Shown: positions 42,179-54,367 of the stretch, in pieces
Position numbering within the stretch: position 1 is the first letter of the stretch
Layout of the letters: every line of letters begins with the position of its first letter
Origin: a virus
Lineage: Duplodnaviria > Heunggongvirae > Uroviricota > Caudoviricetes
IMG/VR virus record: IMGVR_UViG_3300001533_000890
Location: 449-64,448 of that record
Strand: one strand, 5' to 3'
DNA: 64,000 nt
Position numbers and translations under genes: made by a program
Notes under the pieces: model-generated
The model's input: the letters and a program-made list of their open reading frames with translations, nothing else
Told to the model about the DNA's origin: nothing
Database searches by the model: none

Positions 42179-42954
42179 ACCAGCCGCCATCGACTCTCGA
42201 TATTTTCCAAGGCGACAACCTCAAAATCTTGTCTCGTTTCGACCGACCATGTTTTGATTTGATTTACATGGATCCGCCTTTTAATACGGGCCGTACTCAA
42301 AAGGCTGCCGAGGGTACGTATGCCGATACTTTTGAGGACTACTCAGCGTTTCTTGAACCACGTCTTAAAGCGGCCTTTGAGCTACTTGATGCGGCGGGGA
42401 CTTTGTGTGTTCATTTGGACTACCGGGAAGTCCACTACGTAAAAGTCTTGCTGGACCGGCTTGTTGGCCGCGAGTGTTTTCTTAACGAAATTATCTGGGC
42501 GTATGACTTTGGTGGTCGGGCAAAGAAGCGCTGGTCTGCCAAACACGACACTCTTTTACTCTATGTAAAGGACGCGAAGGAGTATACATTTCGCTTTGAT
42601 GACATGGAACGCATCCCCTACATGGCCCCCGGGCTGGCGGGTCCGGAAAAAGCTGCGAGGGGGAAAACTCCGACCGACGTGTGGTGGCACACAGTTGTCC
42701 ACACCCGGGGGAAAGAACGTTGCGGCTACCCCACTCAGAAACCAGTCGGCTTGCTTAATCGATTGATAACAGTCCACACACATCCCGGCGACCTTGTGTT
42801 GGATTGTTTTGCCGGGTCTGGCACAACCGGCGAAGCAGCTCTTAAAAACGGACGCAGCGCCGTACTCATTGACTCAAATCCGGACGCGATTAAAGTAATG
42901 ATGCGCCGTCTTGAAGAATATTCTCCTCGCCTCCACCCGGAATCCCATGCCTGA
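42175..42954 (+). CDS. DNA methyltransferase, beta-class (N6-adenine or N4-cytosine)
   Basis: Motif IV LIYMDPPFNTGR occurs before motif I CFAGSGTTGEAALKNGRSAVLIDSNPDA. Confidence 0.7.
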   Translation: MNQPPSTLDIFQGDNLKILSRFDRPCFDLIYMDPPFNTGRTQKAAEGTYADTFEDYSAFLEPRLKAAFELLDAAGTLCVHLDYREVHYVKVLLDRLVGRECFLNEIIWAYDFGGRAKKRWSAKHDTLLLYVKDAKEYTFRFDDMERIPYMAPGLAGPEKAARGKTPTDVWWHTVVHTRGKERCGYPTQKPVGLLNRLITVHTHPGDLVLDCFAGSGTTGEAALKNGRSAVLIDSNPDAIKVMMRRLEEYSPRLHPESHA

Positions 42955-45724
42955 ACTTCAAACACTTAAACTGATAACTGAAACGGCTTCTGGCACACTT
43001 GTTAAGCAGCCCGTCACTATTCGTGTTGTAAGAAACCGGATTGAATTTGTCAAGTCTCCCTTTGGTTTGAAGGATGAGATTAAGGCAATGAAGGGTTCAA
43101 AGTGGCATGGTTTTGAAGACCCGCCACGAAAGATTTGGAGTGTAGCAGACTGCGACCGCAACCGTTTTCAACTCGCCTACATGGCGGGTGAAAATCCTTA
43201 TGAATGGTGGGACCGCCCTCTTATCGAGCATGAGTATGAGCGGCCACTGCGTGAACACCAGAAGTTGATGGCAAACTTCGGCCTTACGTACCATTTTGGT
43301 ATCTTTGCGGCCGAGATGGGATGTATTGCCGGGGATGCAACCGTCCATGTGAATCGCGCGGGCAAGAGTTTTTCAATAACTCTTGCAGAGCTATGTTACA
43401 AGTTTCATGGCGGGGCCACTTACAACGGACCTACAACGCTAAATCGCCCTTCTAAACGAGTCTGGGATACATCTATCGACACCTTTGTACGGGGGTTTCG
43501 GGGCGAAGCGTTTGGTCTAACAAAGATCATTGATGTAGTTTTCCAGGGCCACAAGAAAGTTAAGTTGTTGAGGACTAAATCCGGCAAAGTGCTGCGGCTT
43601 ACTCCTGACCACGAGCTGTGCATCAATGCTTACCGGTATGGCACATTCAAACCTCTCAATGAATTGATGCCCGGGGATTATATCATGGTGGCCGCTCCTG
43701 ATGGATTTGCCCGGCAGTCGCGGGCCGTGCCGCAAACGCCTCCTAGCCGGTTGACAAAAACAACGCAACAAGGTCTGGGGCATTTTATTGACAACGACGG
43801 GTATGTTCGTGTTGGAGGTTTGAAAGGCCACCCCCGCGCCAACCGATCGAATCAGGTGTATGAACACATTCTCGTAGTAGAGGAACTGTTAGGTCGACGG
43901 GTCACAGTAAAAGAGCAGATTCACCATTTGAATCAGCAGCGGTGGGATAATCGGCCGGAGAACTTGGTGGTCTGCACAGCAAGAGAGCATGCAGACTTTC
44001 ATAGTGGTAATAAGGTTCACTTACACAATGGTACTAACTCATCTGCGTTCTGTTTTTGTTTTGACCCAATCGCGTCAATCGAGGATGGTGGCACCGTTGA
44101 TGTATACGACATAAAGTGTGAGGGGCCCTACCACAACTTCATCGCTAATGGTATTGTAGTACACAATTGCGGCAAGACCCTTAGTGCTATAGAGGTTATG
44201 GAACAGTCGGGCTACAATGATTGGATTTGGGTTGGCCCCAAGGCGGGCCTCCGCGCGGTTGAACGTGAGTTTCATAAGTGGGGACTTACTGATGTAAACC
44301 TCGATCTATTTACGTATGAAGCTCTGACCTCTAAGATGAAGAATTGGACACCAGGCGACCTTCCCCCTCACGGTGTCATCTTTGACGAGTCAAGCAGACT
44401 TAAGAATCACCATAGCCAACGGGCCCAGGCCGCGCAGGCATTAGCTGACGGCATCCGGGCCGAGTATGGTCGCGATGGGTTCGTTATTCTAATGACCGGC
44501 ACTCCATCCCCTAAGTCTCCTGTAGATTGGTGGTCCCAGGCTGAGATTGCGTGCCCTGGTTTTCTGCGCGAAGGTGACATGAGGGCTTTTGAACGAAGGC
44601 TGGGCATCTTTGTAGAGAAAGAAACATCTCAAGGCAAGCACCTTCAACGTGTAACATGGTTGGATACAGAAGAAAAGTGTGCTATTTGCGGTGGCCTTGA
44701 GGATGAAGAACAGCATCAATTTGAATACGCCGAGGATTACCACCGATGGAAACCAAGCGTCAATGAAGTTGCGTTACTGCACGAACGCCTGGACGGATTG
44801 GCCCTTGTAATGCACAAGAAGGATTGGCTCGACCTTCCCGAGAAACAATACCGAGTTGTGCAGTGTGAAGTTACACCCACTATTGACCGCGTAGCCAAGG
44901 CTCTGGTTAAACTGGCGCCTAATGCCATGACAGGTTTGACGTGGTTGCGGGAGCTAAGCGATGGATTTCAATATAGAGAAGAGGTTCAGGGGACGGAGCC
45001 CTGCCCCGCATGCGCGAACACAGATACCCCGGGTAAGTTGCCAGTTTGGGTTGATCCAGATGATCCTGACCGAACTTTTGAAATGGTAGACATGCTGGAC
45101 CCTGAGTATGTTTCGACCTTATCAAAAGAACTGCAAACCTGCAAAACATGCGATGGTACATTAGAAGTGCCTCATAAGGTGCGAGTTATTCGAGAGGTTC
45201 CGACGCCTAAAGAGAAGGCCACAATTGAACTGCTAGAAGAGAACGAAGAAACCGGACGCTTGGTTATTTTTGCAGGGTTCACCGGCTCTCTTGATCGGCT
45301 GGGAAAGCTATGCCAAAAGCAGCGCTGGGCAGTGATCCGGGTGGATGGCCGTGGGTGGAAAGTTTGGGATAGCGCTGGCAACCCAATAGTCGTTGAAAAT
45401 CCACTGGATTATTGGGCCGACTTAGAACACAACCCTCGTGTTGTTTTTGTCGCACACCCAAAGTCAGGCGGTATGAGTTTAACTCTCACCGAAGCGTCTA
45501 TGGCGGTATTCTACTCCAATGATTTCTCACCAGAGTCGAGATCCCAGGCGGAAGATCGAATTCATAGAATTGGTGTGGATGAGAACAAAGGTGCCACTAT
45601 TGTTGACCTTATCCATTTACCTACTGATGAGCATGTACGTAGTATTCTCCGTGAGAATCGCAGGCTTGAATTAATGACTCTTGGCGATATTGCCGCAACC
45701 GTTGGCGTGGAGACTGATGAATGA
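42946..45724 (+). CDS. SNF2-family helicase/ATPase with an intein inserted in the Walker A P-loop
   Basis: The exteins AAEMG|...|CGKTLSA rejoin as GCGKT. DExH box VIFDESSRLKNHH. C-terminal helicase domain with a Zn-ribbon. Confidence 0.7.
43322..44167 (+). mobile_element. intein (282 aa) with HNH homing endonuclease, inserted in the helicase P-loop
   Basis: Starts CIAGDATV, ends IVVHN with a +1 Cys. HNH motif EQIHHLNQQRWDNRPENLVVCTAREHADFH. Confidence 0.75.
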
Positions 45725-46218
45725 AGACCCTTATTATGACGGTGGGTTTACCTCGATCAGGTAAAAGTACATGGGCAAGAACGCAGCGACACCCAATAGT
45801 TAATGGGGACTCGATTCGATTGGCATTACATGGGCAGCCCTATGTTTTGGAGGCTGAGCCAATGGTTTCATGTGTTAAGCACCTGATGGTAAAGGCTTTA
45901 CTCCTTGCGGGCCATGACACGGTTATTCTCGACGGTACACACACAACGCAGGCTAACCGTGATAGATGGCTTTCACCTGATTGGGACCGGGTATTTATCA
46001 CGTTTGGGGGCCCCGAGATGTTGGACGTATGCTTAGAGCGTGCCTTGAAAACTTGTATCGGCCGCAAGCATGTTGAAGACCTTACAATGTCTATTCGACG
46101 CATGGCCCGGGGGTACGAACGCCCTACATCTTTTGAGAAGACAGTGGGTATTTATACCCACTCCGAACACCCGGTACAGGGAGAACTTACACCTTTTCCG
46201 GAGATTAGAAATGCCTGA
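45721..46218 (+). CDS. P-loop kinase, polynucleotide-kinase-like
   Basis: Walker A GLPRSGKST, VILDGTH, RDRW. 165 aa, small Pnk or AAA_33-like. Confidence 0.5.
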   Translation: MKTLIMTVGLPRSGKSTWARTQRHPIVNGDSIRLALHGQPYVLEAEPMVSCVKHLMVKALLLAGHDTVILDGTHTTQANRDRWLSPDWDRVFITFGGPEMLDVCLERALKTCIGRKHVEDLTMSIRRMARGYERPTSFEKTVGIYTHSEHPVQGELTPFPEIRNA

Positions 46219-46630
46219 TGATGGACTAATTGTCGCAGTTGACTTTGATGGTACCTGTGTTACACATGAGTTTCCGGCCGTTGGACGATCTATCGGTGCC
46301 GAACCCGTGCTACGTCGCATGCTCAGCGAGGGGGCAAAGTTAATCCTTTGGACAATGAGGAGCGGCAAAGAATTGCGTGATGCAGTTCGCTGGTTTACAG
46401 ACCGTCGTATCCCTCTTTTTGGCGTCAATCAAAATCCGGACCAGCACAACTGGACACAGAGTCCAAAAGCCTATGCACACGTTTACATCGATGACCTGTC
46501 GGTTGGAGTACCGCTTACCCTTGGGCTAAGTGACCGGCCGTACATTGATTGGCCCGCAGTTGAGGCCCTGCTATTCGGGCGGGGTGGCATATTTAACAAA
46601 AGGAGAAGTAATGAATCCTTACAAGATTAA
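46211..46630 (+). CDS. HAD-superfamily phosphatase (polynucleotide 3'-phosphatase-like)
   Basis: HAD motif I VAVDFDGTCV, motif II WTMRSG, motif IV YIDDLSVG. Overlaps the kinase stop. Confidence 0.5.
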   Translation: MPDDGLIVAVDFDGTCVTHEFPAVGRSIGAEPVLRRMLSEGAKLILWTMRSGKELRDAVRWFTDRRIPLFGVNQNPDQHNWTQSPKAYAHVYIDDLSVGVPLTLGLSDRPYIDWPAVEALLFGRGGIFNKRRSNESLQD

Positions 46631-46832
46631 TCGGTGGTGCTACATGGCAGCGATGGGGTGTATTGTGGCAGCAGCAACTCTCGGCCTATCGGCAATTTGG
46701 GTGGATGCTATTTGGAATAGCCCCCTTATGCCCCGTTGTTGGTATTCAATCGGGCTACTATTTGTTACCTCATTTGCTGGCGTCAGTGTAACCTACCTTT
46801 TAACTCCCGAGATGAAGAATGATCGCACGTAA
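46611..46832 (+). CDS. small membrane protein
   Basis: AAAGGAGAAG ribosome-binding site, then ATG. Two hydrophobic helices. Confidence 0.35.
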   Translation: MNPYKINRWCYMAAMGCIVAAATLGLSAIWVDAIWNSPLMPRCWYSIGLLFVTSFAGVSVTYLLTPEMKNDRT

Positions 46833-46919
46833 TGTTGCCACCGAATCCCGGCCCCTGTTGTTGAGTCTTGAAGACTGTATTCATTATTTGGCGACACATT
46901 GTCAGCCTGAAAGGAAGCT

Positions 46920-47111
46920 ATGAAAACGAGTTTACGTGCCCCTGCACTTTTCCTGTCTCTCACACTCCTAGCCGTTACCACTACTGTTATGGCGGCGGTA
47001 GGTTTCTGGGGCGAAGTGACGCAATTCTCGCTACTGGCAACAGGCGCGGGAGGGGCGACAGCAGTTGTGACACTTCTTCGTCTTGGAATACCTCCACGAG
47101 CTAATCAGTAA
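46920..47111 (+). CDS. small membrane protein
   Basis: AAGGAAG ribosome-binding site, then ATG. 63 aa, hydrophobic. Confidence 0.35.
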   Translation: MKTSLRAPALFLSLTLLAVTTTVMAAVGFWGEVTQFSLLATGAGGATAVVTLLRLGIPPRANQ

Positions 47112-47132
47112 CATTTAACCGAGAGAAATGCC

Positions 47133-47474
47133 ATGAACTTTGATTTTATTCCATTGATGATTGTGCTCGCCCTAATTTTGACGGGGTACCTGTGTCGATA
47201 CACTTTGTTATACGCAGTACGCCGGGCGGGGCCACAGTCGGGGTCGGAGTGGCCTGAATTGGACGAGTGTATTCAACTTTTAGCTCGACACCGAGGTACC
47301 TTGCGTTTTGAAGATGACCCTGAGAGCCCGGATATAATCCACGGCTCAATTCGGGTTGGAACCCCGGCGAAGCGACGTGTCGCTCATTTTACGTTTTCGC
47401 GCGACAAGATTCCTTCGGCCGCGAGTTACTCCTTGATTCCACTTTGTGATGCCCTCAAGTTGGAGGGGTATTGA
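47133..47474 (+). CDS. hypothetical membrane-anchored protein
   Basis: 113 aa, N-terminal transmembrane segment. Confidence 0.35.
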   Translation: MNFDFIPLMIVLALILTGYLCRYTLLYAVRRAGPQSGSEWPELDECIQLLARHRGTLRFEDDPESPDIIHGSIRVGTPAKRRVAHFTFSRDKIPSAASYSLIPLCDALKLEGY

Positions 47475-47725
47475 TGCTTTTTCACAACCTTTCTAAGGTA
47501 AACACAATGATTCCTGAGCATGAATTTGACGACCCATTTGAAGAGCCCTTTGACTTTGATGACCTTGATTACGACCCCGCCGACGTTGTTCGTTTTACGG
47601 GCGACGAGTTGCGGGTAATTGGGCGATTGGCACAGAACTTGCTCTCCAATGCTGTTGAAGTGGGCATTAACCCAGACTTGCTTGAGGACATTTACTTGAA
47701 AACCTACTCATTTATTGATGCGTGA
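47471..47725 (+). CDS. small acidic protein
   Basis: 84 aa, Asp/Glu-rich. Confidence 0.3.
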   Translation: MMLFHNLSKVNTMIPEHEFDDPFEEPFDFDDLDYDPADVVRFTGDELRVIGRLAQNLLSNAVEVGINPDLLEDIYLKTYSFIDA

Positions 47726-47736
47726 CCCTTGAAAAC

Positions 47737-47765
47737 CTTGACAAGACCCAAAACACATGGTACAA
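47737..47765 (+). promoter_or_regulatory. sigma70 consensus promoter (TTGACA, 17-nt spacer, TACAAT) driving the tRNA-like ncRNA
   Basis: TTGACAagacccaaaacacatggTACAAT. The predicted transcription start lies about 7 nt downstream, at roughly 47772-47775. Confidence 0.6.
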
Positions 47766-47774
47766 TAGAATATA

Positions 47775-47897
47775 GGACCCCGTGGTGTAATGGTAACACA
47801 CGTTTATGCTTCACCACACCTTGCCTTAACGGGCCGACGGTAAAGCGTTATTGAACTGTTAATTCCGTAATCCAGGTTCGAGTCCTGGCGGGGTCGT
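47775..47897 (+). ncRNA. tRNA-like non-coding RNA (YrlA/Y RNA-like candidate). It has acceptor, D and T arms, but about 70 nt replace the anticodon arm.
   Basis: 5' GACCCCG pairs with 3' CGGGGTC. D-arm GTGTaatggtaACAC. T-arm CCAGGttcgagtCCTGG. No canonical anticodon stem. Internal helix GCTTCACC/GGTAAAGC. Confidence 0.5.
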
Positions 47898-48045
47898 TTG
47901 TCGGGCCGCTTGCAATGGGTTATCGTTTTGGATAAGACCCCATTGCAAACACTTGTCCGCCACCTTACAAACGGGCCGCTTGTGTCGGGTTATTGGTTAA
48001 TATTATCCCGACCCAGTTACTTGCCCGTTGTTCTTTAACTGGAGA
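47898..48045 (+). promoter_or_regulatory. two stem-loops sharing a GGGCCGCTTG direct repeat, in the leader of the Ro60 gene or the 3' part of the ncRNA
   Basis: Hairpins TTGCAATGGG(loop)CCCATTGCAA (47910-47948) and GTCGGG(loop)CCCGAC. Confidence 0.35.
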
Positions 48046-48050
48046 ATAGA

Positions 48051-49655
48051 ATGGCAAACTATGCGAGTCACCTTGTTACGGCAACCCAGCGGGAACCCTT
48101 GTTTGATCGTAAACAGATTAAGAACGATGCTGGAGGTTACGTTTTTAAGGTTGAGCCCTTTCAGGTTCTCCAACGGTTTCTCATTCTAGGCTGTGACGGC
48201 GGAACTTATTACACGGGCGAGGCGCAGATGACTCGCCGCATGGCGAAAGTTTTACAAGAATGCGCCCGACGGTCTGTTGAGTCAACTATCACCACCATAC
48301 TTCAAGCGCTGCCCCGCGCAATTAAGCCAACCCCTGCGGTTTTTTGTCTTGCTTACTTGTCTAGTGGTAAGTGCGGCCCGCAGGCGGCGCGGGCGGCTTT
48401 GGCCGAAGTTAACACGGTTTGTCGCACCGCTTCGCATCTCTTTACGTTCGTGGAGCAAACAACGAAATTCCGGGGCTGGGGACGCGGCCTGCGGAAAGCC
48501 GTGGCGGGCTGGTATACGGCTAAGGACCCACAGTCTTTGATGTATCAGGTTACGAAGTATGGTCAACGAGAGGGCTACACGCATCGTGACCTCCTTCGTT
48601 TGGCACATCCTTACTCCCCTGAGTTGAATGAAGTTTTTCGGTACATTTGCAGCGGAGAGTACACCAAGAATGACACCCTTGGTTCATGGCTATCCGTGAT
48701 TAATAGTCTGTCCGAAGCCACAAGTGCCAAGTCTGTTGCGAAGCATATCCGGGCTTGGCGATTGGTTCGCGAAGTTATTCCAACCAAGTGGCTCAATTCT
48801 TCCTTGGTGTGGGAGGCGCTGCTTGATAGGATGCCATATACAGCCTTGGTTCGCAACCTTGGGAAGATGACCGCTGTTGGGCTACTAACGCCTTTTAGCG
48901 ATGCTTCTAAACTGGTTTGTGAGCGGCTGCGGTCGGCGGGGCAGGCTCTTCATCCTGCTGCATTGTTGCTGGCAAGCACCACCTATCAAAAAGGTCAAGG
49001 CGTCAGGGGCAACTTGTCTTGGAACCCTGACCAGAATATTTGTGAGGCACTTGAGGACGCATTTTACGGCGCTTTCGACACTGTGACACCCGCTGGCAAG
49101 AACTTTATGCTGGCAATCGACGTTTCTGGCTCCATGGGCTGGCGCGGTTTTGACTTCCTGGGTTCTATTGCTGGCACACACCTTAAAGCTTACCAAGCCG
49201 CCGCTGTTATGGCGCTGGCACAGACGCGGTCCGAGCCATGGTGCCTTACGACGGCATTTACTGGCCGGCAGGGTAACAGACGCGCCGGTGGTCTTAAGCT
49301 CGTGGAAAATTTCGGCCGACACTGCCGTTTACAGCCCGCTTTGGATGAGCTTAGGCGAATTCCGGTTGGTCCAACAGACTGCGCACTTCCAATGATTTAC
49401 GCCCGGGAAAATAAATTACCGGTTGACACTTTTGTTGTCTACACTGATAACGAAAGCTGGCAGGGTAAAACGCACCCTTGTCGAGCCCTCGAAGATTATC
49501 GGCAAGCCACGGGTCGCGATGCCAAATTGGTTGTTTGTGCATTGACTGCTACTGAGTATTCGGTAGCTGACCCGGATGATCCCGGAATGCTTGATGTTGT
49601 AGGTTTTGACCCCACTTGCCCATCCGTTATCTCTCGTTTTGCAGGAGAACTTTAA
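48051..49655 (+). CDS. rsr: Ro60/Rsr-like ribonucleoprotein (TROVE domain with C-terminal vWA/MIDAS)
   Basis: 534 aa, the typical Ro60 size. vWA MIDAS motif FMLAIDVSGSMGW near residue 360. An adjacent tRNA-like ncRNA is characteristic of Rsr and Y RNA loci. Confidence 0.65.
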   Translation: MANYASHLVTATQREPLFDRKQIKNDAGGYVFKVEPFQVLQRFLILGCDGGTYYTGEAQMTRRMAKVLQECARRSVESTITTILQALPRAIKPTPAVFCLAYLSSGKCGPQAARAALAEVNTVCRTASHLFTFVEQTTKFRGWGRGLRKAVAGWYTAKDPQSLMYQVTKYGQREGYTHRDLLRLAHPYSPELNEVFRYICSGEYTKNDTLGSWLSVINSLSEATSAKSVAKHIRAWRLVREVIPTKWLNSSLVWEALLDRMPYTALVRNLGKMTAVGLLTPFSDASKLVCERLRSAGQALHPAALLLASTTYQKGQGVRGNLSWNPDQNICEALEDAFYGAFDTVTPAGKNFMLAIDVSGSMGWRGFDFLGSIAGTHLKAYQAAAVMALAQTRSEPWCLTTAFTGRQGNRRAGGLKLVENFGRHCRLQPALDELRRIPVGPTDCALPMIYARENKLPVDTFVVYTDNESWQGKTHPCRALEDYRQATGRDAKLVVCALTATEYSVADPDDPGMLDVVGFDPTCPSVISRFAGEL

Positions 49656-49852
49656 TGTCAACCACTGCACCAGAAATTGGAGACGTCGCCGCCTGTCAAA
49701 GTGGGACCCTTGGAGTGGTTAAGTCAATTCGCATCCAAGGAAACGGGCGAATTCTCTATGAGGGTACAACTGTGGATGGAAGTCGCCCGTGGCAAAGTGT
49801 GCGCCCGGCTCGGGTTGATACTTGGGAGCAGTGGAAAACGCGCCACGCATGA
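49656..49852 (+). CDS. hypothetical small protein
   Basis: 65-aa ORF, TAATG-coupled to rsr and ATGA-coupled to the next gene. Confidence 0.3.
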
Positions 49853-50451
49853 TTTGGTTTATAAGTGACACACACTTTGGGCATGCACGTTTGATGGAGT
49901 CGCCCGAGCGCGCCGGGCGGTTCCCATCTCTTGCTGACCTGGACGCGGCAATTATTGACGGTATTAATCAATACGTCGGCCGCAATGACGTCCTTTATCA
50001 CCTTGGCGACTTTTGTTGGGGTGCCCGTTTGATAGGGCACTATCGGCAGCGCCTTAAAGTACGGACCCTGCACGTTATCCGTGGGAACCACGACCCGGCC
50101 AGTCTTGGGAGGCATTGCTCTACAATGCGTGATATGGCCGTGGTGAAGTTTCGACAGCCGGGGTGGTCGCACTCGATTAAATTTCACCTGTGTCATTTTC
50201 CCATCGTTAATTGGGCGTCGATGCACCGTGGCGGCGGGCATTTGTACGGCCACTGTCACGGCCGGTCGGAAGCTGACTTGAACCGCATCCACCCGGGTCG
50301 TCGCGCCCTCGATGTTAGCGCGGACAATCTTTATCGGTTGTTTGGTAGCTATCGACCAATCAGTTTGGATGATCTAATTGAACGGTGGGACTTGGCAGAA
50401 ACCCGTGATTATTTCCCCGGCCCGTTTGAACACAATAAGGATACACAATGA
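49849..50451 (+). CDS. calcineurin-like metallophosphoesterase (candidate RNA 2',3'-cyclic-phosphate or 3'-phosphate end-healing enzyme)
   Basis: Motifs ISDTHFGH, LGDFCWG, IRGNHD and GHCHGR. Confidence 0.6.
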   Translation: MIWFISDTHFGHARLMESPERAGRFPSLADLDAAIIDGINQYVGRNDVLYHLGDFCWGARLIGHYRQRLKVRTLHVIRGNHDPASLGRHCSTMRDMAVVKFRQPGWSHSIKFHLCHFPIVNWASMHRGGGHLYGHCHGRSEADLNRIHPGRRALDVSADNLYRLFGSYRPISLDDLIERWDLAETRDYFPGPFEHNKDTQ

Positions 50452-51524
50452 GTAATACCCCTGTTGAAATCACCCCTGTCTTAGCTGTTGAACAGCACCC
50501 CAACGCGGACCGTTTGGAATTGGTGCGCGTTATTACCACGCAGTTCATCTCCCAAAAAGGTATTTACCAACAGGGTGATCTTTGTGTCTATTTCCCGCCA
50601 GATGTTATGATTCCTGAAACATTGGCGGAAGAGCTAGGTGTTGCTGCCTACTTAAAGCACTCAATCTACCCCGGCGATTCGTTCAAATCAAAGTGTCGCG
50701 TTGGTGCCATCCGACTTCGTAGCATTGCATCATTTGGTTTCGGACTACCCGTGGATAAAGTGTCCGCGGCGCGGCCGGGTTGTTATGACGATGGAGCAGA
50801 CGTGTCCGAGCTTGTCGGGGCCGTTAAATATCAACCTCCCGAACTAGAAACAATGCGTGGCTCCGACACGGTACGGTCTCCCGAGGCGTTTCACAAGTAC
50901 ACCAGTATCGAACACTATTACCGTAATGCCATCGCGCTGCCAGAAGGCACGCCCGTCCGCGTGACCGAGAAGCTACACGGAACGAACTCCCGAGTCGGCC
51001 TAATCTACGACAACGGTTGGGAGTTCATGTGTGGCACCCACCACCGACGGGTCAAGTCGGAGAATGCTCGCGGACGGAAGTCCATCTACTGGAAGCCCTT
51101 AACTGACGGGATGAAAGCTCTCTTATCGCACCTGTCACAAGAGACAAACAATGTTATTGTCTTTGGCGAGATTTTCGGGCGCAAGGTCCAGCCAATGGAC
51201 TACGGGGCTGGACCGGCCGAGGGTTATCGAGTTTTTGACATTTCAGTAAACGGGGACTACCTGGATTGGCACAGTATTTGCACCTTTTGTAGGAAGTTCG
51301 GCATCCCAGTCGTGCCGCTACTACACTCCGGACCATTTTATACGGGCCTGGTCGATGAATTTGTAAGCGGGCCAACATCTGTTGCCCACTCCGAGAATAT
51401 TGCGTGCAAATTCAAAGGACGAGAGGGGATTGTGATAACCCCCTTGACTGAAACTTATAGTCCCGAACTTTGTGGCCGTTTGATTCTGAAAGCCGTCAGT
51501 CCTGATTACTATGAGGCTATGTAA
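50448..51524 (+). CDS. ATP-dependent RNA ligase (Rnl2-like KxHGxN nucleotidyltransferase) with an N-terminal Trbp111/EMAP-like tRNA-binding OB domain
   Basis: The N-terminus AVEQHPNADRLELVRV...GDLCVYFPPDV resembles the tRNA-binding domain of MetRS C-terminus/Trbp111. Ligase motif I VTEKLHGTNSRVG. Confidence 0.6.
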   Translation: MSNTPVEITPVLAVEQHPNADRLELVRVITTQFISQKGIYQQGDLCVYFPPDVMIPETLAEELGVAAYLKHSIYPGDSFKSKCRVGAIRLRSIASFGFGLPVDKVSAARPGCYDDGADVSELVGAVKYQPPELETMRGSDTVRSPEAFHKYTSIEHYYRNAIALPEGTPVRVTEKLHGTNSRVGLIYDNGWEFMCGTHHRRVKSENARGRKSIYWKPLTDGMKALLSHLSQETNNVIVFGEIFGRKVQPMDYGAGPAEGYRVFDISVNGDYLDWHSICTFCRKFGIPVVPLLHSGPFYTGLVDEFVSGPTSVAHSENIACKFKGREGIVITPLTETYSPELCGRLILKAVSPDYYEAM

Positions 51525-52198
51525 TGAAGCTTAAACCTTTCTTTACCATGTTTGGAGCGAAATGGCGGGCCGCTCCCCGGTATCCCAAGCCTCAGTATAG
51601 CACCATTGTAGAGCCCTTTGCTGGGGCTGCTGGCTACTCCGTGCGGTATGCGGACAGAAACATACGCCTGTACGAACTTAATCCGGCTTTCTATGGTGTA
51701 TGGCACTATCTTATCCATGTTCGGCCCTCAGAAGTGATGCGAATTCCCGTTGATCTTTTCCATGTCGACGAGCTTGTAGGCTGGCCCTAGGAAACAAAGT
51801 GGCTTATAGGTTTATGGTTCAATAAAGGTGCCGCACATCCCTGTAAACAACGCACACGCTGGTCAGATGTAAGCCCAAAATCGCACTGGGGTGAATCAAT
51901 CAGGGCACGTATTGCGGACCAAGTTGAAGCCATTCGACACTGGAAGATTTACAATGCGTCTTATGAAACTGCCCCGCCCGATGTCGCCACTTGGTTCATT
52001 GACCCGCCCTACCAAGAATGGGGCAAAGCTTATCGAACCTCAAAGATTGACTACGAGCAACTTGCAACTTTCTGCAAAACTCGCCAAGGACAAGTAACAG
52101 TTTGTGAGCAACGGGGCGCCAATTGGTTGCCCTTTCAACTATTTGGTGAGGTAAAAGCTAAACGTGGTAAATCCACGGAAGTAACCTGGACCAACTAA
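51524..52198 (+). pseudogene. Dam-like N6-adenine DNA methyltransferase interrupted by an in-frame TAG at 51788-51790 (pseudogene or read-through)
   Basis: Motif I EPFAGAAGYS lies upstream of the TAG. Motif IV FIDPPYQEW lies downstream in the same frame. Confidence 0.55.
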
Positions 52199-52218: not shown

Positions 52219-53538
52219 ATGTCCAAGCTTTCAGAGAATCAAGTCCGACAAATCAAGCTCTTGCTTGCCGAGGACAAGAAAACTCAGCTCGAGATTGCGA
52301 AGAAGTTTAAGATTAGTCGTTCAATGGTGTCTGATATTGCAACTGGGCGGGCTTATTCTAAAGTCCCGGGGCCAGCCACCCCTCCGAAGATGGCGAAAGG
52401 ACAGCGACGAAAGCTTCTGGACGTGGACCCGACCAATGAACAGGTTCTTGAGTTGGAAGCCGAGGTAACGCATCTCCGTGAGGAACGCAACCATGCTCGG
52501 AGCCAACTTAAGGTTGCGGCCAAAACTCGGGGACTGTATCAAGCAATTACCGCTGAAATGGATAGGGTTGTTAAGCCATTTCGAGCACTTCCAAAAGCAC
52601 GCCCAGCCGCCGCGCGAGCAACAAAGTCCGCTATCACGGAACATCTTGTGCTGCATTTGAGCGACGGTCACCACGACCAAATTATTACGCCCGAGGAGTG
52701 TGGCGGTTTGGAATCTCATGATTTTCCAGTTAGCATGTGTCGCGCAGAACACTTGATCGACACGGTTTTGAAGTGGACCCAAGTTAGCCTCGCGCCACAG
52801 TTTCGCTTCCCTAACTTGACGGTGTTAGCTTACGGCGACCATACAAGTGGAGAAATTCACGGGCATGTAAACCGCTCTTACTTTAAGAATCAGTTCAAGA
52901 ACTGTTTTGCAATTGGACAGCTTCATGCCCTAATGTTTCGGGACCTGGCACCTTATTTTGACAACGTAAACATTGTCTATGTCCCAGGTAACCATGGTCG
53001 TAGGTCGATTAAGAAGGACTACCACGGGGCCCACGACAACTGGGATTACCTGATTGCAAAAACAGCGGAGATGTACTGCCGCGACCTAGAAAACGTTTTC
53101 TTCACGATTCCTGATTCCTTCAGCGCGAACGTTGACATTAATGGAGTAGGCTTCTGCATTTTCCACGGCGATGACGTTCGGTCTTCAATGGGGATCCCTT
53201 GGTACGGTTTAGAGCGGCGGCAACGGCGTTTCATGGCGGTTAACCGAGTACAGTCTGGCCCGCGCGTCCGGTACTATTGTTGCGGACATTTTCACCGCCC
53301 GGGAAGTGTTTCTGAGCTGGACGGTGAGATGATGATTAACGGGCCCTGGGTTGCAACGGACGCATTTGCGTTCAATGCGCTTTCTGTATACTCAGAGCCA
53401 ACGCAGCTTCTACACGGCGTAAACCCGCAATACGGGGTGACTTGGAGGCTGCCCATTAAGCTCCGAACAGACAAGGAAGCCAAAGGTCCCCAGCGGTACA
53501 AGATTGACATTGCCCGAGAGGTTGGCGTATGCCATTAA
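52219..53538 (+). CDS. helix-turn-helix DNA-binding domain fused to a calcineurin-like metallophosphoesterase (Mre11/SbcD-like or phosphatase)
   Basis: N-terminal HTH KKTQLEIAKKFKISRSMVSDIATGRA. Phosphoesterase motifs LSDGHHD, AYGDHTSG, VPGNHGRR and GHFHRPG. Confidence 0.55.
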   Translation: MSKLSENQVRQIKLLLAEDKKTQLEIAKKFKISRSMVSDIATGRAYSKVPGPATPPKMAKGQRRKLLDVDPTNEQVLELEAEVTHLREERNHARSQLKVAAKTRGLYQAITAEMDRVVKPFRALPKARPAAARATKSAITEHLVLHLSDGHHDQIITPEECGGLESHDFPVSMCRAEHLIDTVLKWTQVSLAPQFRFPNLTVLAYGDHTSGEIHGHVNRSYFKNQFKNCFAIGQLHALMFRDLAPYFDNVNIVYVPGNHGRRSIKKDYHGAHDNWDYLIAKTAEMYCRDLENVFFTIPDSFSANVDINGVGFCIFHGDDVRSSMGIPWYGLERRQRRFMAVNRVQSGPRVRYYCCGHFHRPGSVSELDGEMMINGPWVATDAFAFNALSVYSEPTQLLHGVNPQYGVTWRLPIKLRTDKEAKGPQRYKIDIAREVGVCH

Positions 53539-54294: not shown

Positions 54295-54367
54295 TGCGCG
54301 GTAGCTCAATTGGTAGAGCGTCCGACTGTTAATCGGATGGTTGCAGGTTCGAGCCCTGCCCGCGCAG
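54295..54367 (+). tRNA. tRNA-Asn (anticodon GTT)
   Basis: Cloverleaf: acceptor TGCGCGG/CCGCGCA, D-arm GCTCaattggtaGAGC, anticodon arm TCCGAcTGTTAaTCGGA, T-arm GCAGGttcgagcCCTGC. 73 nt, no encoded CCA. Confidence 0.85.

What the first reader, a model, noticed from the sequence alone, without database searches (positions are those of the whole stretch)
45721..51524. Phage-encoded RNA/tRNA repair cassette: Pnk-like kinase, HAD phosphatase, Y-RNA-like ncRNA, Ro60/Rsr, metallophosphoesterase and tRNA-binding RNA ligase
Six adjacent elements together supply every activity needed to heal and seal broken RNA. A P-loop kinase (GLPRSGKST) could add the 5' phosphate. A HAD phosphatase (DFDGT) and a calcineurin-type phosphoesterase (GNHD/GHxH) could each resolve a 3'-phosphate or 2',3'-cyclic phosphate end. 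The RNA ligase carries the KLHGTN motif and is fused to a Trbp111-like tRNA-binding domain, which would direct sealing to tRNA. A Ro60 homologue (TROVE + vWA MIDAS DVSGSM) sits beside a promoter-driven tRNA-like RNA. Bacterial Rsr and Y RNA loci are known to neighbour RtcB ligase, and T4 Pnk plus Rnl1 repairs tRNA cut by PrrC. Here the activities are split across separate genes, use an Rnl2-type ligase, and are combined with Ro60. That suggests a counter-defence against host anticodon nucleases (PrrC, RloC, colicin-like or VapC-type enzymes) and has not, to my knowledge, been described as one unit.
Basis: partly seen in the sequence, partly recalled or inferred. Interest (0 to 1): 0.85.

Follow-up and report, generated by a model that had tools for sequence, protein, structure and literature searches.

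The report
Phage RNA-repair genes around Ro60–Y RNAs
A bacteriophage carries, side by side, genes for mending broken RNA and a Ro60 protein with three partner 'Y' RNAs; the gene kinds are already known from phages and bacteria, but one Y RNA has a tRNA-shaped layout I could not find described, and the tight clustering is unusual.

Summary
All six elements exist at the stated coordinates. Profile searches give a T4-Pnk-type polynucleotide kinase, a BT0820-type HAD phosphatase, Ro60 (TROVE+vWA), a small metallophosphoesterase (MPE) and an RNA ligase with intact motifs.

Corrections:
- The ligase is Rnl5 (DraRnl/NgrRnl), not Rnl2. Its "tRNA-binding" N-domain is the OB domain that defines all Rnl5 ligases.
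- Five small ORFs interrupt the "cassette".
- It is not a conserved unit. Sister phages scatter the same genes over about 5-20 kb, and most phage Ro60 loci lack them.

Neighbourhood counts support three recurrent modules: kinase-HAD (also crAss001 gp61/gp60); Rnl5 with this MPE, the kinase and RlaP; and promoter-Y RNAs-Ro60.

The ncRNA is three RNAs. Two are metazoan-like Y hairpins. The third is a 120-nt "tRNA-order" Y RNA with an open 7-bp acceptor stem, D and T arms, and the Ro-binding helix closed by a loop in the anticodon-arm position. This is a circular permutation of canonical YrlA. Covariation supports it. It occurs in 25 of 79 viral Ro60 loci and in many Myxococcota loci. ARAGORN misses it.

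Repair as counter-defence is plausible but inferred, and the concept is already published. Verdict: new variant of a known kind.

The parts
45721..46218 (+). Polynucleotide 5'-kinase (165 aa), T4 Pnk clade. Its start overlaps the stop of the SNF2 helicase gene (ATGA).
   Evidence: P-loop GLPRSGKST. NGDSIR aligns to T4 NRDDYR (D35, R38). G9, G14, K15, D30, R33 and R107 are invariant in 44 homologues. The profile hits T4 Pnk at 6e-14, Pnkp1 at 2e-10, PSTK at 7e-10 and CthPnkp kinase at 4e-8. PHROG 505.
46211..46630 (+). Capless HAD phosphatase (139 aa), BT0820 family. Overlaps the kinase gene by 8 nt. Inferred to be a 3'-phosphatase, making a split Pnkp.
   Evidence: DFDGT motif plus YIDD. NF046079 3e-22; PDB 2obb 9e-14. 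51% identical to crAss001 gp60, which follows gp61 'polynucleotide kinase'. About 18 of 80 viral HAD loci have a Pnk-like kinase directly adjacent.
46611..47725 (+). Four small ORFs of unknown function (46611-46832, 46920-47111, 47133-47474, 47474-47725). By eye, the first three have hydrophobic, membrane-like segments. They lie physically inside the 'cassette' but are not assigned to it.
   Evidence: Called as genes on the Logan copy of the contig. No Pfam, PHROG or PADLOC hits. Only the last ORF has a syntenic homologue, in L004/L005 just upstream of the Y array.
47738..47766 (+). Sigma-70-type promoter with an extended -10 element, driving the Y RNA array and probably Ro60-MPE-ligase.
   Evidence: TTGACA-17-TACAAT, 11 of 12 positions, TG extension. 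The -35 TTGACA is invariant, and a -10-like element lies at the same spacing, in sister phages L002, L004 and L006. The scan found no convincing intrinsic terminator before 51524, only one weak 5-bp site inside the MPE gene.
47776..47895 (+). tRNA-order Y RNA ('tY'). It has a 7-bp open acceptor stem, a D arm and a 2-bp remnant of the anticodon stem. A Y stem follows, made of an 8-bp upper stem and the Ro-binding helix (CUUGCCU at 47820-47826, CGGGCCGA at 47830-47837), closed by a small loop (UAAC, 47827-47830, by my pairing). Then come GUUAUU, a small hairpin (loop CUGUUAA) and a T arm.
   Evidence: Read directly from the sequence. CM R2 scores it 94.2 bits, against 58 bits or less for true tRNAs. 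Covariation over 35 homologues: 87.9% of cells paired against 34-47% when the partners are slid; 7 of 7 acceptor pairs and 8 of 8 upper-stem pairs show compensatory changes. A test that did not use acceptor pairing for selection found 21 of 24 elements with 7/7 acceptor pairing. Levitt pair: G15:C48 18 times, A15:U48 13 times, of 35.
47900..47963 (+). Y RNA hairpin Y-a: lower Ro-binding helix GGGCCG.../...CUUGUCC, upper stem, GGUUAUC loop.
   Evidence: CM R1 54.1 bits. Sub-threshold Rfam hit to nematode sbRNA family RF01656, 31.4 bits, E 0.0019; sbRNAs are Y RNA homologues (PMC4726728). Fold z-score -3.3. 11 of 15 consensus pairs show compensatory changes.
47970..48031 (+). Y RNA hairpin Y-b, with the same architecture. 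It ends 19 nt before the Ro60 start codon.
   Evidence: CM R1 56.9 bits. RF01656 24.6 bits. Fold z-score -3.4.
48051..49655 (+). Ro60/Rsr orthologue (534 aa): TROVE HEAT-repeat ring plus a vWA domain with a MIDAS motif.
   Evidence: PF05731 2e-34 and PF25045 5e-52. NF041674 Rsr 9e-118. 2741 homologues at E<=1e-10; the closest are 55-64% identical and lie on long (38-113 kb) metagenomic contigs, the examined ones phage-like.
49655..49852 (+). 65-aa ORF of unknown function between Ro60 and the MPE.
   Evidence: Called as a gene on L001. A 40%-identical homologue lies downstream of Ro60 in L004/L005. No family hits.
49849..50451 (+). Small calcineurin-type metallophosphoesterase (200 aa). Inferred to be a 2',3'-cyclic phosphodiesterase or 3'-phosphatase.
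   Evidence: All MPE motifs can be read in the translation. PF00149 1.2e-8; PHROG 547 9e-38. The best PDB match is the uncharacterised aq_1665, 9e-6. The same family lies downstream of Ro60 in L002, L004, L006, L089, L008, L035 and L038 and near Rnl5 in 11 of 80 viral loci.
50448..51524 (+). Rnl5-family ATP-dependent nick-sealing RNA ligase (358 aa): N-terminal OB domain plus NTase domain, no C-terminal domain. Its start overlaps the MPE stop (ATGA).
   Evidence: TIGR02306 7.6e-40 over residues 11-355. PF21189 plus PF09414. NgrRnl 3e-6 over both domains. Motif I TEKLHG is identical to DraRnl (PMC1807946). Motif residues are invariant or nearly so in 21 homologues. N-domain model pLDDT 92.7; Foldseek NgrRnl E 5e-9, TM about 0.8.

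Best explanation
The region is the compact form of a variable accessory region of a tailed phage. It sits between the SNF2 helicase and a conserved exonuclease gene and holds three separable modules that recur elsewhere.

Module 1 is a split Pnkp: a T4-Pnk-type 5'-kinase and a capless HAD phosphatase encoded by overlapping genes.

Module 2 is a self-contained Ro60 RNP unit. A strong sigma-70-type promoter starts transcription 1-3 nt before a tRNA-order Y RNA. Two Y RNA hairpins follow, then the Ro60 mRNA. The tRNA-like element supplies RNase P and 3'-processing sites that would release the RNAs. Each RNA carries a Ro-binding helix.

Module 3 is a small metallophosphoesterase translationally coupled to an Rnl5 nick-sealing RNA ligase. 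It is probably co-transcribed with Ro60.

Inferred mechanism: RNAs cut by metal-independent host nucleases carry 2',3'-cyclic-phosphate and 5'-OH ends. The MPE and/or HAD heal the 3' end and the kinase heals the 5' end. Rnl5 seals the break while the two halves are held together by base-pairing. Ro60 with its Y RNAs handles damaged or misfolded structured RNA in parallel, either triaging it or tethering a host effector such as PNPase. Whether Ro60 acts in the same pathway as the ligase is not shown.

Shown here: domain identities, intact catalytic motifs, RNA structures supported by covariation, and recurrent neighbourhoods. Inferred: substrates, the order of reactions, RNA processing, Ro60 binding and a counter-defence role.
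For: Identities.

The window is a tailed phage, with terminase, major head protein, tape measure, primase and DNA polymerase.

Kinase-HAD pair: it recurs in crAss001 as gp61/gp60. It is directly adjacent in about 18 of 80 viral HAD loci, in both gene orders. Four HAD loci also carry Rnl5, one of them immediately downstream.

Rnl5 neighbourhoods: 80 viral loci hold this MPE family in 11, the Pnk-like kinase in 7 and RlaP in 6. By contrast, the MPE occurs in 1 of 80 HAD loci.

Sister phages keep Ro60, MPE, Rnl5 and the kinase, plus RlaP, RtcB or NADAR, within about 5-20 kb.

Same-contig co-occurrence: 6 of the best Ro60 viral contigs are also in the Rnl5 list, and L011/L012 carry Rnl5 within 8 kb.

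Bacterial Ro60 loci carry RtcB in 12 of 80 and an Rnl5-like ligase in 3 of 80.

Y modules: 139 CM hits in 71 of 84 sources, all on the Ro60 strand and almost all within about 1 kb of Ro60.

tY.

The promoter is conserved. Overlapping start and stop codons are visible.

Literature:
- Y RNAs and Rsr are processed from one precursor, and M. smegmatis YrlA is cut by RNase P and receives CCA (PMC4201824).
- The Salmonella rsr-yrlBA-rtcBA operon is induced by damaged tRNA (PMC7790460).
- A phage Ro60 binds phage Yrl RNAs and host PNPase in vitro (PMC12135203).
- Phage RNA-repair gene sets have been surveyed (PMC7824862).
Against: There are no expression or biochemical data.

The cluster as a whole is not conserved. 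Most phage Ro60 loci have no ligase, kinase or HAD within 8 kb. Sister phages lack the HAD, and there the kinase sits among sulfotransferase-like genes.

Co-occurrence on shared contigs may simply reflect common descent of related phages.

Characterised Rnl5 enzymes need a nicked duplex (PMC4408790, PMC5397189). Their physiological substrates are unknown, and loop breaks in tRNA are the speciality of Rnl1.

The MPE's closest solved relative is uncharacterised.

The window's Y-a and Y-b read CGCUUG where the consensus is CGAAGG, so Ro binding is not guaranteed.

Single-sequence folding of the tY does not recover the cloverleaf (z-score -1.4).
Confidence: 0.6

Rival explanations
1. One reading: one integrated six-part cassette dedicated to repairing tRNAs cut by anticodon nucleases (PrrC, RloC, colicin-like, VapC). 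The ligase is steered to tRNA by a Trbp111-like domain, and Ro60 with a tRNA-like RNA acts as part of the same machine.
For: All healing and sealing activities are encoded within 5.8 kb, in one orientation, with overlapping genes. The ligase N-domain is a distant structural relative of PheRS-B2, Trbp111 and EMAPII OB folds (PMC1807946). The Y RNA is tRNA-shaped. The phage carries its own tRNA-Asn(GTT) at 54295-54367, and the small tY hairpin has the same 7-nt loop, CUGUUAA. Bacterial rsr loci neighbour RtcB (PMC7790460).
Against: The N-domain is common to all Rnl5 ligases. It has no PF01588 match, and its known role is in adenylylation and nick sealing, not tRNA targeting (PMC1807946, PMC4408790). 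Rnl5 enzymes prefer duplex nicks. The unit is not conserved. Five unrelated small ORFs are interspersed. No anticodon-nuclease target or host is known. Anticodon-like loops occur in only a minority of tYs.
Confidence: 0.2
2. Ro60 and its Y RNAs act independently of the repair enzymes. They capture a host effector, such as PNPase in a RYPER-like complex, to degrade or remodel structured host or phage RNAs. Their position next to kinase, HAD, MPE and ligase is an accident of a hypervariable accessory region.
For: The promoter-Y-Ro60 unit is the only part conserved across 71 of 84 sources. Most loci lack repair genes. The order and content of neighbouring genes vary among sister phages. A Thermus phage Ro60 forms complexes with phage Yrl RNAs and host PNPase in vitro (PMC12135203). 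D. radiodurans Y RNA tethers Rsr to PNPase (PMC4201824).
Against: The MPE family recurs downstream of Ro60 in several lineages (L002, L004, L006, L089, L008, L035, L038). Rnl5 lies within 8 kb of Ro60 in L008 and L011/L012, on the same contig in at least 5 more of the best Ro60 contigs, and near Ro60 in 3 Kofleriaceae genomes. RtcB-rsr linkage in bacteria is well known. In the window, MPE and ligase appear to be co-transcribed with Ro60.
Confidence: 0.3
3. The kinase, HAD, MPE and Rnl5 work on DNA or on RNA-DNA junctions rather than in RNA repair. Examples are sealing nicks with a ribonucleotide 3' end during replication or repair, or cleaning DNA ends.
For: The genes lie among replication genes: SNF2 helicase, exonuclease, ParB, primase and DNA polymerase. 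DraRnl seals nicks that need only a ribo 3'-OH side, and its loss sensitises D. radiodurans to ionising radiation (PMC5397189). T4 Pnkp also acts on DNA ends (established knowledge).
Against: The recurrent partners RlaP, RtcB and NADAR, and Ro60 with Y RNAs, are RNA-centred (PMC7824862). The kinase profile also matches the tRNA-dependent kinase PSTK and RNA-repair Pnkp enzymes.
Confidence: 0.1

Closest known systems
YrlA-type bacterial Y RNAs (S. Typhimurium, M. smegmatis; Chen et al. 2014, PMC4201824; Wang et al. 2018, bioRxiv 10.1101/312249)
   Same: Encoded next to Ro60 on the same strand and polycistronic with it. They carry a Ro-binding motif (GNCGA...), a YUAY/UUAU motif, conserved D and T arms, and a Levitt pair that covaries (G15:C48 or A15:U48). 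The Ro-binding stem extends from the anticodon-stem position.
   Different: Canonical YrlA has T before D, a closed acceptor stem-loop, its 5' and 3' ends at the Ro-binding stem, and no free acceptor end. Here the order is D before T, the 7-bp acceptor stem carries the termini, and the Ro-binding helix is closed by a loop. Topologically it matches RNase P-cleaved M. smegmatis YrlA, but as one piece. D. radiodurans Yrn1 is a third topology, with the Ro stem at the acceptor position.
Metazoan Y RNAs and nematode sbRNAs (PMC4726728)
   Same: Y-a and Y-b are 62-64-nt hairpins with a lower conserved helix (GGGCCG / CUUGYCC), an upper stem and a GGUUAUC motif at the start of the loop. They hit Rfam sbRNA family RF01656. 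A bacterial homologue even passes that family's gathering score.
   Different: They are phage-encoded and transcribed in tandem from a bacterial-type promoter, not by RNA polymerase III. The window's copies read CGCUUG instead of CGAAGG.
Phage Ro60 with Y RNA-like RNAs (mycobacteriophages, CcrColossus, Bacillus phage G; Thermus phage phiLo, PMC12135203)
   Same: A phage Ro60 with two or more Y-like RNAs encoded just upstream.
   Different: In the accounts available to me (PMC4201824, PMC12135203) those RNAs are canonical YrlA or simple stem-bulge-stem Yrl RNAs, with no tRNA-order form mentioned. phiLo is not reported with a ligase, kinase or MPE nearby.
Salmonella rsr-yrlBA-rtcBA RNA repair operon (PMC7790460)
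   Same: Ro60, Y RNAs and an RNA ligase lie in one transcription unit, linked to damaged tRNA.
   Different: That operon uses RtcB, which joins 3'-P or cyclic-P to 5'-OH and needs no healing, together with the RtcA cyclase, under sigma-54/RtcR control. Here there is a classic ATP-dependent Rnl5 ligase that needs healed ends, separate healing enzymes, a sigma-70-type promoter, and no RtcB in the 64-kb window.
T4 Pnkp with Rnl1/Rnl2, and bacterial Pnkp-Hen1
   Same: The logic is the same: 5'-kinase, 3'-phosphatase or phosphoesterase, then an ATP-dependent ligase. The kinase is a sequence relative of T4 Pnk, Pnkp1 and CthPnkp. The gene order kinase then HAD mirrors the domain order of T4 Pnkp.
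   Different: The activities are on separate polypeptides. The HAD belongs to the BT0820 family, not the T4 Pnkp phosphatase domain by any direct match. The ligase is Rnl5, not Rnl1, Rnl2 or the Pnkp ligase domain. Hen1 was not looked for.
Rnl5 ligases DraRnl and NgrRnl (PMC1807946, PMC4408790, PMC7261155)
   Same: N-terminal OB domain plus NTase domain with no C-terminal domain. [quoted passage not shown] The family match covers the full length.
   Different: About 26% identity to NgrRnl in the N-domain. It scores 136.8 bits against TIGR02306, just under that model's equivalog cutoff of 151. It is phage-encoded. DraRnl homologues in phages were already noted in 2007.

Membership tests
Ro60/Rsr (TROVE) | TROVE HEAT-repeat ring domain plus C-terminal vWA domain with a MIDAS motif | tested here: met
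   PF05731 2e-34 and PF25045 5e-52. NF041674 9e-118, below the strict equivalog cutoff. D357, S359 and S361 are invariant.
Ro60/Rsr (TROVE) | Binds Y RNA through the conserved helix | not testable with these tools
   Only the presence of the cognate RNA motifs is shown.
Y RNA (stem-loop type: metazoan Y, sbRNA, YrlB-like) | The 5' and 3' ends pair into a conserved lower helix (GGNCCGA / CUUGNCC), followed by an upper stem and a loop with UUAUC; encoded beside Ro60 | tested here: met
   Alignment A2 gives 15 consensus pairs, 11 with compensatory changes. All 139 CM hits lie on the Ro60 strand next to Ro60. Caveat: the window's Y-a and Y-b have CGCU in place of CGAA.
YrlA (canonical) | tRNA-like D and T arms with tRNA tertiary pairs, plus GNCGAA and YUAY motifs | tested here: met
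   D stem 100% paired and T stem 90% paired. Levitt pair consistent in 31 of 35. GCCGACGG and GUUAUU are present in the window.
YrlA (canonical) | Circularly permuted order: Ro stem 5' strand, V, T arm, closed acceptor stem-loop, D arm, Ro stem 3' strand; no free acceptor end | tested here: not met
   The order is acceptor 5' strand, D, Y stem closed by a loop, V, T, acceptor 3' strand. Acceptor pairing is 7/7 in 21 of 24 elements chosen without using it and 99.6% paired with compensatory changes at all 7 pairs. The window has no second D arm downstream.
Genuine tRNA | Cloverleaf with a 5-bp anticodon stem and 7-nt anticodon loop, recognised by tRNA finders | tested here: not met
   ARAGORN finds only tRNA-Asn at 54295 in the window and none of the tYs in the 10 loci scanned. 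No Rfam tRNA hit for 47776-47895 even at E<=10. Some homologues score as tRNA with an insertion of about 55 nt.
Rnl5 (DraRnl/NgrRnl) RNA ligase | Signature N-terminal OB domain plus NTase domain with motifs I-V, and no C-terminal domain | tested here: met
   PF21189 plus PF09414. TIGR02306 7.6e-40 covering residues 11-355. NgrRnl is the best PDB match by sequence and by fold. TEKLHG and the other motif residues are conserved.
Rnl5 (DraRnl/NgrRnl) RNA ligase | Seals 3'-OH/5'-PO4 nicks in duplexes with an RNA 3'-OH strand | not testable with these tools
   Needs biochemistry.
Rnl2 RNA ligase | NTase domain followed by the Rnl2-specific C-terminal domain | tested here: not met
   TIGR02307 matches only residues 148-299, at 1.4e-6. 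T4 Rnl2 aligns to the NTase part only. The protein ends about 10 residues after motif V.
tRNA_bind (Trbp111, CsaA, EMAPII, PheRS-B2) domain | Match to PF01588, or close fold identity | tested here: inconclusive
   No PF01588 hit at E<=10. Foldseek gives PheRS beta at E 1e-3 and TM 0.55, and Trbp111 at E 0.02-0.03 and TM about 0.3, against NgrRnl N-domain at E 5e-9 and TM 0.8. It is a distant relative and not evidence of tRNA binding.
T4-type polynucleotide kinase | P-loop plus catalytic Asp and Arg (T4 D35, R38) and a lid Arg | tested here: met
   Profile against T4 Pnk 6e-14 over the whole kinase domain. K15, D30, R33 and R107 are invariant.
T4 Pnkp (bifunctional) | Kinase fused to a DxDxT phosphatase domain in one polypeptide | tested here: not met
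   Two overlapping genes. The HAD's only PDB sequence match is BT0820/2obb; no T4 Pnkp phosphatase domain appeared even at E<=10. The resemblance is functional, by analogy.
rsr-yrl-rtcBA operon | RtcB ligase, RtcA cyclase and RtcR/sigma-54 control | tested here: not met
   An RtcB HMM finds nothing in the window's ORFs. The promoter is of sigma-70 type. RtcA and RtcR were not searched for specifically.
Known anti-phage defence systems (PADLOC) | Match to a defence-system protein model | tested here: not met
   No hits for any of 10 proteins.

The most novel reading that the evidence does not exclude
The tRNA-order Y RNA is a third, so far undescribed topology of tRNA-like Y RNA. It would be a one-piece molecule with genuine tRNA ends that RNase P, 3'-processing enzymes and the CCA-adding enzyme could act on, and whose anticodon arm is a Ro60 docking site. 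It would couple Ro60 to tRNA-handling enzymes, or act as a decoy or sensor for host tRNA-targeting nucleases, with the neighbouring healing and sealing enzymes acting on the same RNP. In evolutionary terms it would be the unpermuted intermediate between tRNA and YrlA. It may also explain why few YrlA RNAs were found in delta-proteobacteria.
Probability: 0.2. Interest if true: 0.85.

Novelty: new variant of a known kind. Interest (0 to 1): 0.6.

Why it matters
For phage biology: Ro60-Y RNA units are common in environmental phages. At least 260 IMG/VR contigs encode a Ro60 relative. In one lineage the unit travels with a set of RNA-healing and RNA-sealing genes: a Pnk-like kinase, a BT0820-type HAD, a small MPE, an Rnl5 ligase, and in relatives RlaP, RtcB or NADAR. 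This gives concrete, compact material for testing whether Ro60 takes part in RNA repair or counter-defence. That question has been open since the rsr-rtcB linkage was found.

For RNA biology: the tRNA-order Y RNA is a well-supported class, backed by covariation, the Levitt pair, and occurrence in 25 of 79 viral loci and many Myxococcota loci. ARAGORN did not report it in any locus scanned, and Rfam offered at best a generic tRNA match. It bears on how Y RNAs arose from tRNAs and on which effector reads the tRNA-like module.

It also suggests a function, 3'-end healing beside a Pnk-like kinase, for the uncharacterised BT0820-type HAD family. That family is annotated 'phosphoheptose isomerase' in PHROGs and RefSeq.

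Tried and rejected
- INPHARED blastn of the whole region found only two tiny hits, a Daubenski Ro-like gene and the crAss001 HAD. The phage has no close relative in the INPHARED phage collection.
- An exact-peptide IMG/VR scan with the single Ro60 protein found nothing. It worked only with an alignment.
- Rfam at gathering threshold finds only tRNA-Asn. No Y RNA or YrlA family hits appear even at E<=10.
- Single-sequence MFE folding of the tY does not give the cloverleaf and is not significant (z-score -1.4). Only comparative analysis resolved the structure.
- Idea: the kinase is an APS or other small-molecule kinase, because it sits among sulfotransferase-like genes in sister phages. Rejected: APS kinase scores 0.035 against 6e-14 for T4 Pnk.
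- Idea: the proteins of about 195 aa that follow the kinase in sister phages are the HAD. Rejected: they are sulfotransferase-like with no DxDxT motif.
- Idea: the small tY hairpin is a general anticodon-stem-loop mimic. Only a minority, about 15-20 of 67, have a YU-NNN-AA 7-nt loop, so it stays a side note.
- Idea: tYs encode CCA. Only 9 of 67 do.
- PADLOC gave no defence-system matches.
- Burroughs & Aravind 2016 (NAR, RNA repair systems) and the Sim/Wolin reviews could not be read in the held library. Statements about them rest on citations in PMC7824862 and on my own knowledge.

Full report
**Context.** The 64-kb window is a tailed-phage genome segment. PHROGs identify a large terminase, major head protein, tape-measure protein, primase and DNA polymerase. 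The finding lies in a run of same-strand, tightly packed genes. On one side is an intein-containing SNF2 helicase (42911-45724; Intein_splicing, HNH_3, Helicase_C). On the other is a conserved 439-aa exonuclease-like gene (52219-53538). An identical copy of the region exists as a 6.1-kb Logan contig (L001). The identical ligase and kinase proteins are recorded on a 78.7-kb JGI contig. No close relative exists in INPHARED.

- *Kinase (45721-46218).* It matches AAA_33 and PHROG 505 'polynucleotide kinase'. A profile of 44 homologues (A7) matches the whole kinase domain of T4 Pnk at E 6e-14. It also matches Capnocytophaga Pnkp1 (2e-10), the tRNA-dependent kinase PSTK (7e-10) and the CthPnkp kinase domain (4e-8). 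APS kinase scores only 0.035. The P-loop Lys, the Asp and Arg that align to T4 D35 and R38, and a lid Arg are invariant.
- *HAD (real start 46211).* It has DFDGT and YIDD. It belongs to the BT0820 family (NF046079 3e-22; PDB 2obb 9e-14).
- *48051 ORF.* It is a full Ro60 (TROVE plus vWA_Ro60; Rsr model 9e-118).
- *MPE (49849-50451).* It has all calcineurin-type motifs. It belongs to PHROG 547. Its only solved relative is uncharacterised (1xm7).
- *Ligase (50448-51524).* It is not Rnl2-type. It matches the DraRnl family model TIGR02306 over its full length (7.6e-40) and the Rnl2 model only weakly, on the NTase core. Its best PDB match is Naegleria NgrRnl over both domains. Motif I (TEKLHG) is identical to that of DraRnl (PMC1807946).
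- *Ligase N-domain.* It is PF21189, with no tRNA_bind match even at E<=10. A confident AF2 model (pLDDT 92.7) superposes on the NgrRnl N-domain (E 5e-9, TM about 0.8). It matches PheRS-B2, YtpR, MetRS-C, Trbp111 and EMAPII folds only distantly (E 1e-3 to 0.03). The domain defines all Rnl5 ligases, where it is needed for adenylylation and nick sealing (PMC1807946, PMC4408790). It is not a special tRNA-targeting fusion.

**The non-coding RNA.** A near-consensus sigma-70 promoter lies at 47738-47766: TTGACA-17-TACAAT, TG-extended, 11 of 12 positions. It precedes 275 nt of non-coding sequence that ends 19 nt before the Ro60 start codon. This stretch holds three RNAs.

- *Y-a (47900-47963) and Y-b (47970-48031).* They fold into stem, internal loop, stem hairpins (z-scores -3.3 and -3.4). 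They give sub-threshold Rfam hits to the nematode sbRNA family RF01656. sbRNAs are the worm homologues of Y RNAs and share the UUAUC loop motif (PMC4726728).
- *Sister phages.* Three sister phages have Ro60 60-61% identical to the window's by tblastn (L002, L004, L006). They carry the same array behind a promoter with the same invariant -35 box. Eleven modules align to the consensus NNGGGCCGAAGG..UGGGUUAUC...CCCA..CCA..ACUUGCCCNN. The consensus structure has 15 pairs, and 11 show compensatory changes.
- *Model R1.* A covariance model built from this alignment finds 139 matches in 71 of 84 sources. All are on the Ro60 strand, and almost all lie within about 1 kb upstream or just downstream of Ro60. 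Forty-three sources carry two to four copies.

**The tRNA-order Y RNA (47776-47895).** The first RNA has these parts, in order:

- a perfect 7-bp acceptor stem (GACCCCG/CGGGGUC) that carries the termini;
- U8 and a D arm with GG;
- a 2-bp remnant of the anticodon stem;
- a three-way junction with two arms, followed by a variable loop and a UUCGAGU T arm.

One arm of the junction is a Y stem. It has an 8-bp upper stem and the Ro-binding helix (CUUGCC... / ...GGGCCGA), closed by a small loop. The other arm is GUUAUU plus a small hairpin.

Canonical YrlA has T before D, a closed acceptor stem-loop, and its ends at the Ro-binding stem. The literature describes it as resembling a circularly permuted tRNA without a free CCA end (PMC4201824; bioRxiv 10.1101/312249). 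The element here is the unpermuted counterpart.

Evidence that it is real:

1. Elements were picked only by a D-arm motif, a Ro motif and a T arm, without using acceptor pairing. Of 24, 21 have 7/7 acceptor pairing in the exact tRNA register. Shifted controls never exceed 5.
2. Covariance model R2 separates 35 full-length matches (70.9-108.3 bits) from ordinary tRNAs (58.5 bits or less). The matches lie in 25 of 79 viral sources.
3. On their alignment, 87.9% of cells are paired, against 34-47% when partners are slid by 1-3 columns. Compensatory changes occur at 7 of 7 acceptor pairs, 2 of 2 junction pairs, 8 of 8 upper-stem pairs and most D and T pairs. The alignment was fitted to the model, so the percentages are somewhat favoured. 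The independent test in point 1 is not affected.
4. The Levitt tertiary pair covaries: G15:C48 18 times and A15:U48 13 times, of 35.

ARAGORN reports none of them. Rfam's tRNA model scores a few as tRNAs with an insertion of about 55 nt, and no other Rfam family matches the tYs.

The class is not phage-specific. About 33 matches of 70 bits or more occur in bacterial Ro60 loci. Most are in Myxococcota, including the complete genomes of Sorangium cellulosum So0157-2 and Minicystis rosea. Others are in Thermoguttaceae and Chloroflexia. Chen et al. 2014 found relatively few YrlA RNAs in delta-proteobacteria in their initial search. The permuted connectivity may be the reason, but this is inference.

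I found no description of this topology in the papers I could search or read. Several reviews were not available.

Sister phages vary at this position. L002 has the same tY. L004 has a plain tRNA-like element. L006 has only an acceptor/T-arm minihelix. This variation suggests that one role of the element is as a processing signal.

**Is it one cassette?** No, not as a conserved unit. I compared 79 non-redundant viral Ro60 loci with 8-kb flanks, using tblastn and iterated HMMs.

- The kinase is found in none of them.
- The HAD is found in one (L019).
- The Rnl5 ligase is found in L008 and L011/L012.
- This MPE family is found in seven lineages.

In the sister phages the same genes exist but are dispersed and reordered across roughly 5-20 kb downstream of Ro60. 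They are interleaved with methyltransferase, glycosyltransferase, sulfotransferase-like, protease and endonuclease genes. Further RNA-repair genes accompany them: RlaP, a DEDD exonuclease, NADAR and RtcB. The HAD is absent there.

The window is thus the most compact arrangement in a hypervariable accessory region.

**Recurrent modules.** Module-level linkage does recur.

- *Kinase-HAD.* The same overlapping kinase then HAD pair is present in the unrelated Crassvirales phage crAss001. Its gp61 is 33% identical to the window kinase over the N-terminal half. Its gp60 is 51% identical to the window HAD, E 3e-49. Among 80 viral loci with this HAD family, 20 have a Pnk-like kinase within 5 kb. About 18 of those are directly adjacent, in either gene order. 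Four also have Rnl5, one immediately downstream.
- *Rnl5 neighbourhood.* Among 80 viral Rnl5 loci, 11 have this MPE family, 7 the Pnk-like kinase and 6 RlaP. Only 1 has Ro60 within 6 kb. As a rough background, the MPE occurs in 1 of 80 HAD loci.
- *Contig-level co-occurrence.* Six of the best Ro60 viral contigs also appear in the Rnl5 list: L007/L286, L008/L288, L010/L278, L013/L262, L014/L266 and L018/L256. This may partly reflect shared ancestry.
- *Bacteria.* In bacterial genomes, Ro60 neighbours RtcB in 12 of 80 loci, the known linkage. It neighbours an Rnl5-like ligase in 3 Kofleriaceae loci.

**Mechanism (inference).** Start and stop codons overlap at helicase/kinase, kinase/HAD, Ro60/orf65/MPE and MPE/ligase. 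Between the Y promoter and the ligase stop, the scan found only one weak 5-bp terminator-like site, inside the MPE gene. Together these suggest two expression units: helicase through kinase, HAD and the small ORFs; and P(Y) through tY, Y-a, Y-b, Ro60, orf65, MPE and Rnl5.

The likely chemistry is the classic heal-and-seal pathway. A cyclic phosphodiesterase or 3'-phosphatase (MPE and/or HAD) and a 5'-kinase prepare 3'-OH and 5'-PO4 ends. Rnl5 seals them when the break is held in a duplex-like context.

Ro60 with three Y RNAs probably forms RNPs as in bacteria. The tRNA-like module would be available to tRNA-recognising proteins, and the RNP could tether host PNPase. Such complexes form in vitro for Thermus phage phiLo (PMC12135203).

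A role against host tRNA- or RNA-cleaving defences is plausible. It is the published interpretation of such gene sets (PMC7824862), but nothing here tests it.

**Novelty.** The components and the idea are known: phage Ro60 with Y RNAs, phage PNK, HAD, phosphoesterase and ligase sets, and rsr-rtcB linkage. What appears new:

1. the tRNA-order topology of a YrlA-like RNA, and its wide distribution;
2. the tY, Y, Y, Ro60 polycistronic layout;
3. Ro60 co-clustered with an ATP-dependent Rnl5 pathway built from single-domain healing enzymes;
4. a contextual functional hint for the BT0820-type HAD family.

I therefore class it as a new variant of a known kind, with moderate interest.

Noticed in passing
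window 42911-45724 (+): The SNF2-family helicase immediately upstream carries an intein (Intein_splicing 3e-13) with an HNH_3 homing-endonuclease domain. Sister phages have intein-free helicases of 639-642 aa.
   Followed up: partly
window 51524-52195 (+), stop codon at 51788-51790: A D12-class N6-adenine DNA methyltransferase (EPFAGAAG ... FIDPPY) is interrupted by a single in-frame TAG, and the reading frame continues unchanged after it. It could be a nonsense mutation or pseudogene, a sequencing error, or amber read-through.
   Followed up: partly
window 54295-54367 (+) and 47853-47865: The only tRNA gene in the window is tRNA-Asn(GTT). Its 7-nt anticodon loop, CUGUUAA, is identical to the loop of the small hairpin in the tRNA-order Y RNA. 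L013 also has tRNA-Asn(GTT) near a tY with the same loop. Anticodon-like YU-NNN-AA loops occur in only about 15-20 of 67 tYs.
   Followed up: partly
L090, L103, L128, L138, L127, L117 (bacterial); L050, L079, L026, L009, L060 (viral): Ro60 and its Y RNAs are embedded in large same-strand tRNA gene arrays, with tens of tRNAs within 5 kb, in Myxococcota and Verrucomicrobiota genomes and in several phages.
   Followed up: no
L128 4830-4899: A verrucomicrobial Y RNA hairpin next to Ro60 passes the Rfam gathering score of the nematode sbRNA family RF01656 (39.4 against 38 bits). In this small sample, Rfam 15 matched these bacterial and phage Y RNAs only with its tRNA model and the worm sbRNA model.
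   Followed up: no
L004 6747-6816; L006 6797-6830: At the position of the tRNA-order Y RNA, sister phage L004 has a plain tRNA-like element without a Ro-binding arm. L006 has only an acceptor/T-arm minihelix. The element looks evolutionarily reducible to a processing signal.
   Followed up: partly
L087 2990-5147; L088 3775-4876; L089 12235-13837: In sister phages the Pnk-like kinase is flanked by two to three paralogous proteins of about 180-195 aa. They have sulfotransferase-like motifs (FLAxPxTGS ... RNPxD) and no Pfam hit. Their function and their relation to the kinase are unknown.
   Followed up: partly
L004 10152-10463; L005 7543-7854: Only short, overlapping fragments match RlaP where sister phages L006 and L089 have a full RlaP gene of 280-304 aa. 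This is probably a decayed RlaP.
   Followed up: no
window 47900-48031: Both Y hairpins of this phage read GCCGCUUG where all nine modules of the sister phages read GCCGAA[GU]. The change lets the upper stem extend and shrinks the internal loop that forms part of the Ro-binding site in other Y RNAs.
   Followed up: no
L170 (crAss001 gp60) and PHROG 1238: The BT0820-type HAD family is annotated 'phosphoheptose isomerase' in PHROGs and in the RefSeq crAss001 record, but 'polynucleotide kinase/phosphatase' in the GenBank record. Its frequent adjacency to Pnk-like kinases favours the latter.
   Followed up: partly
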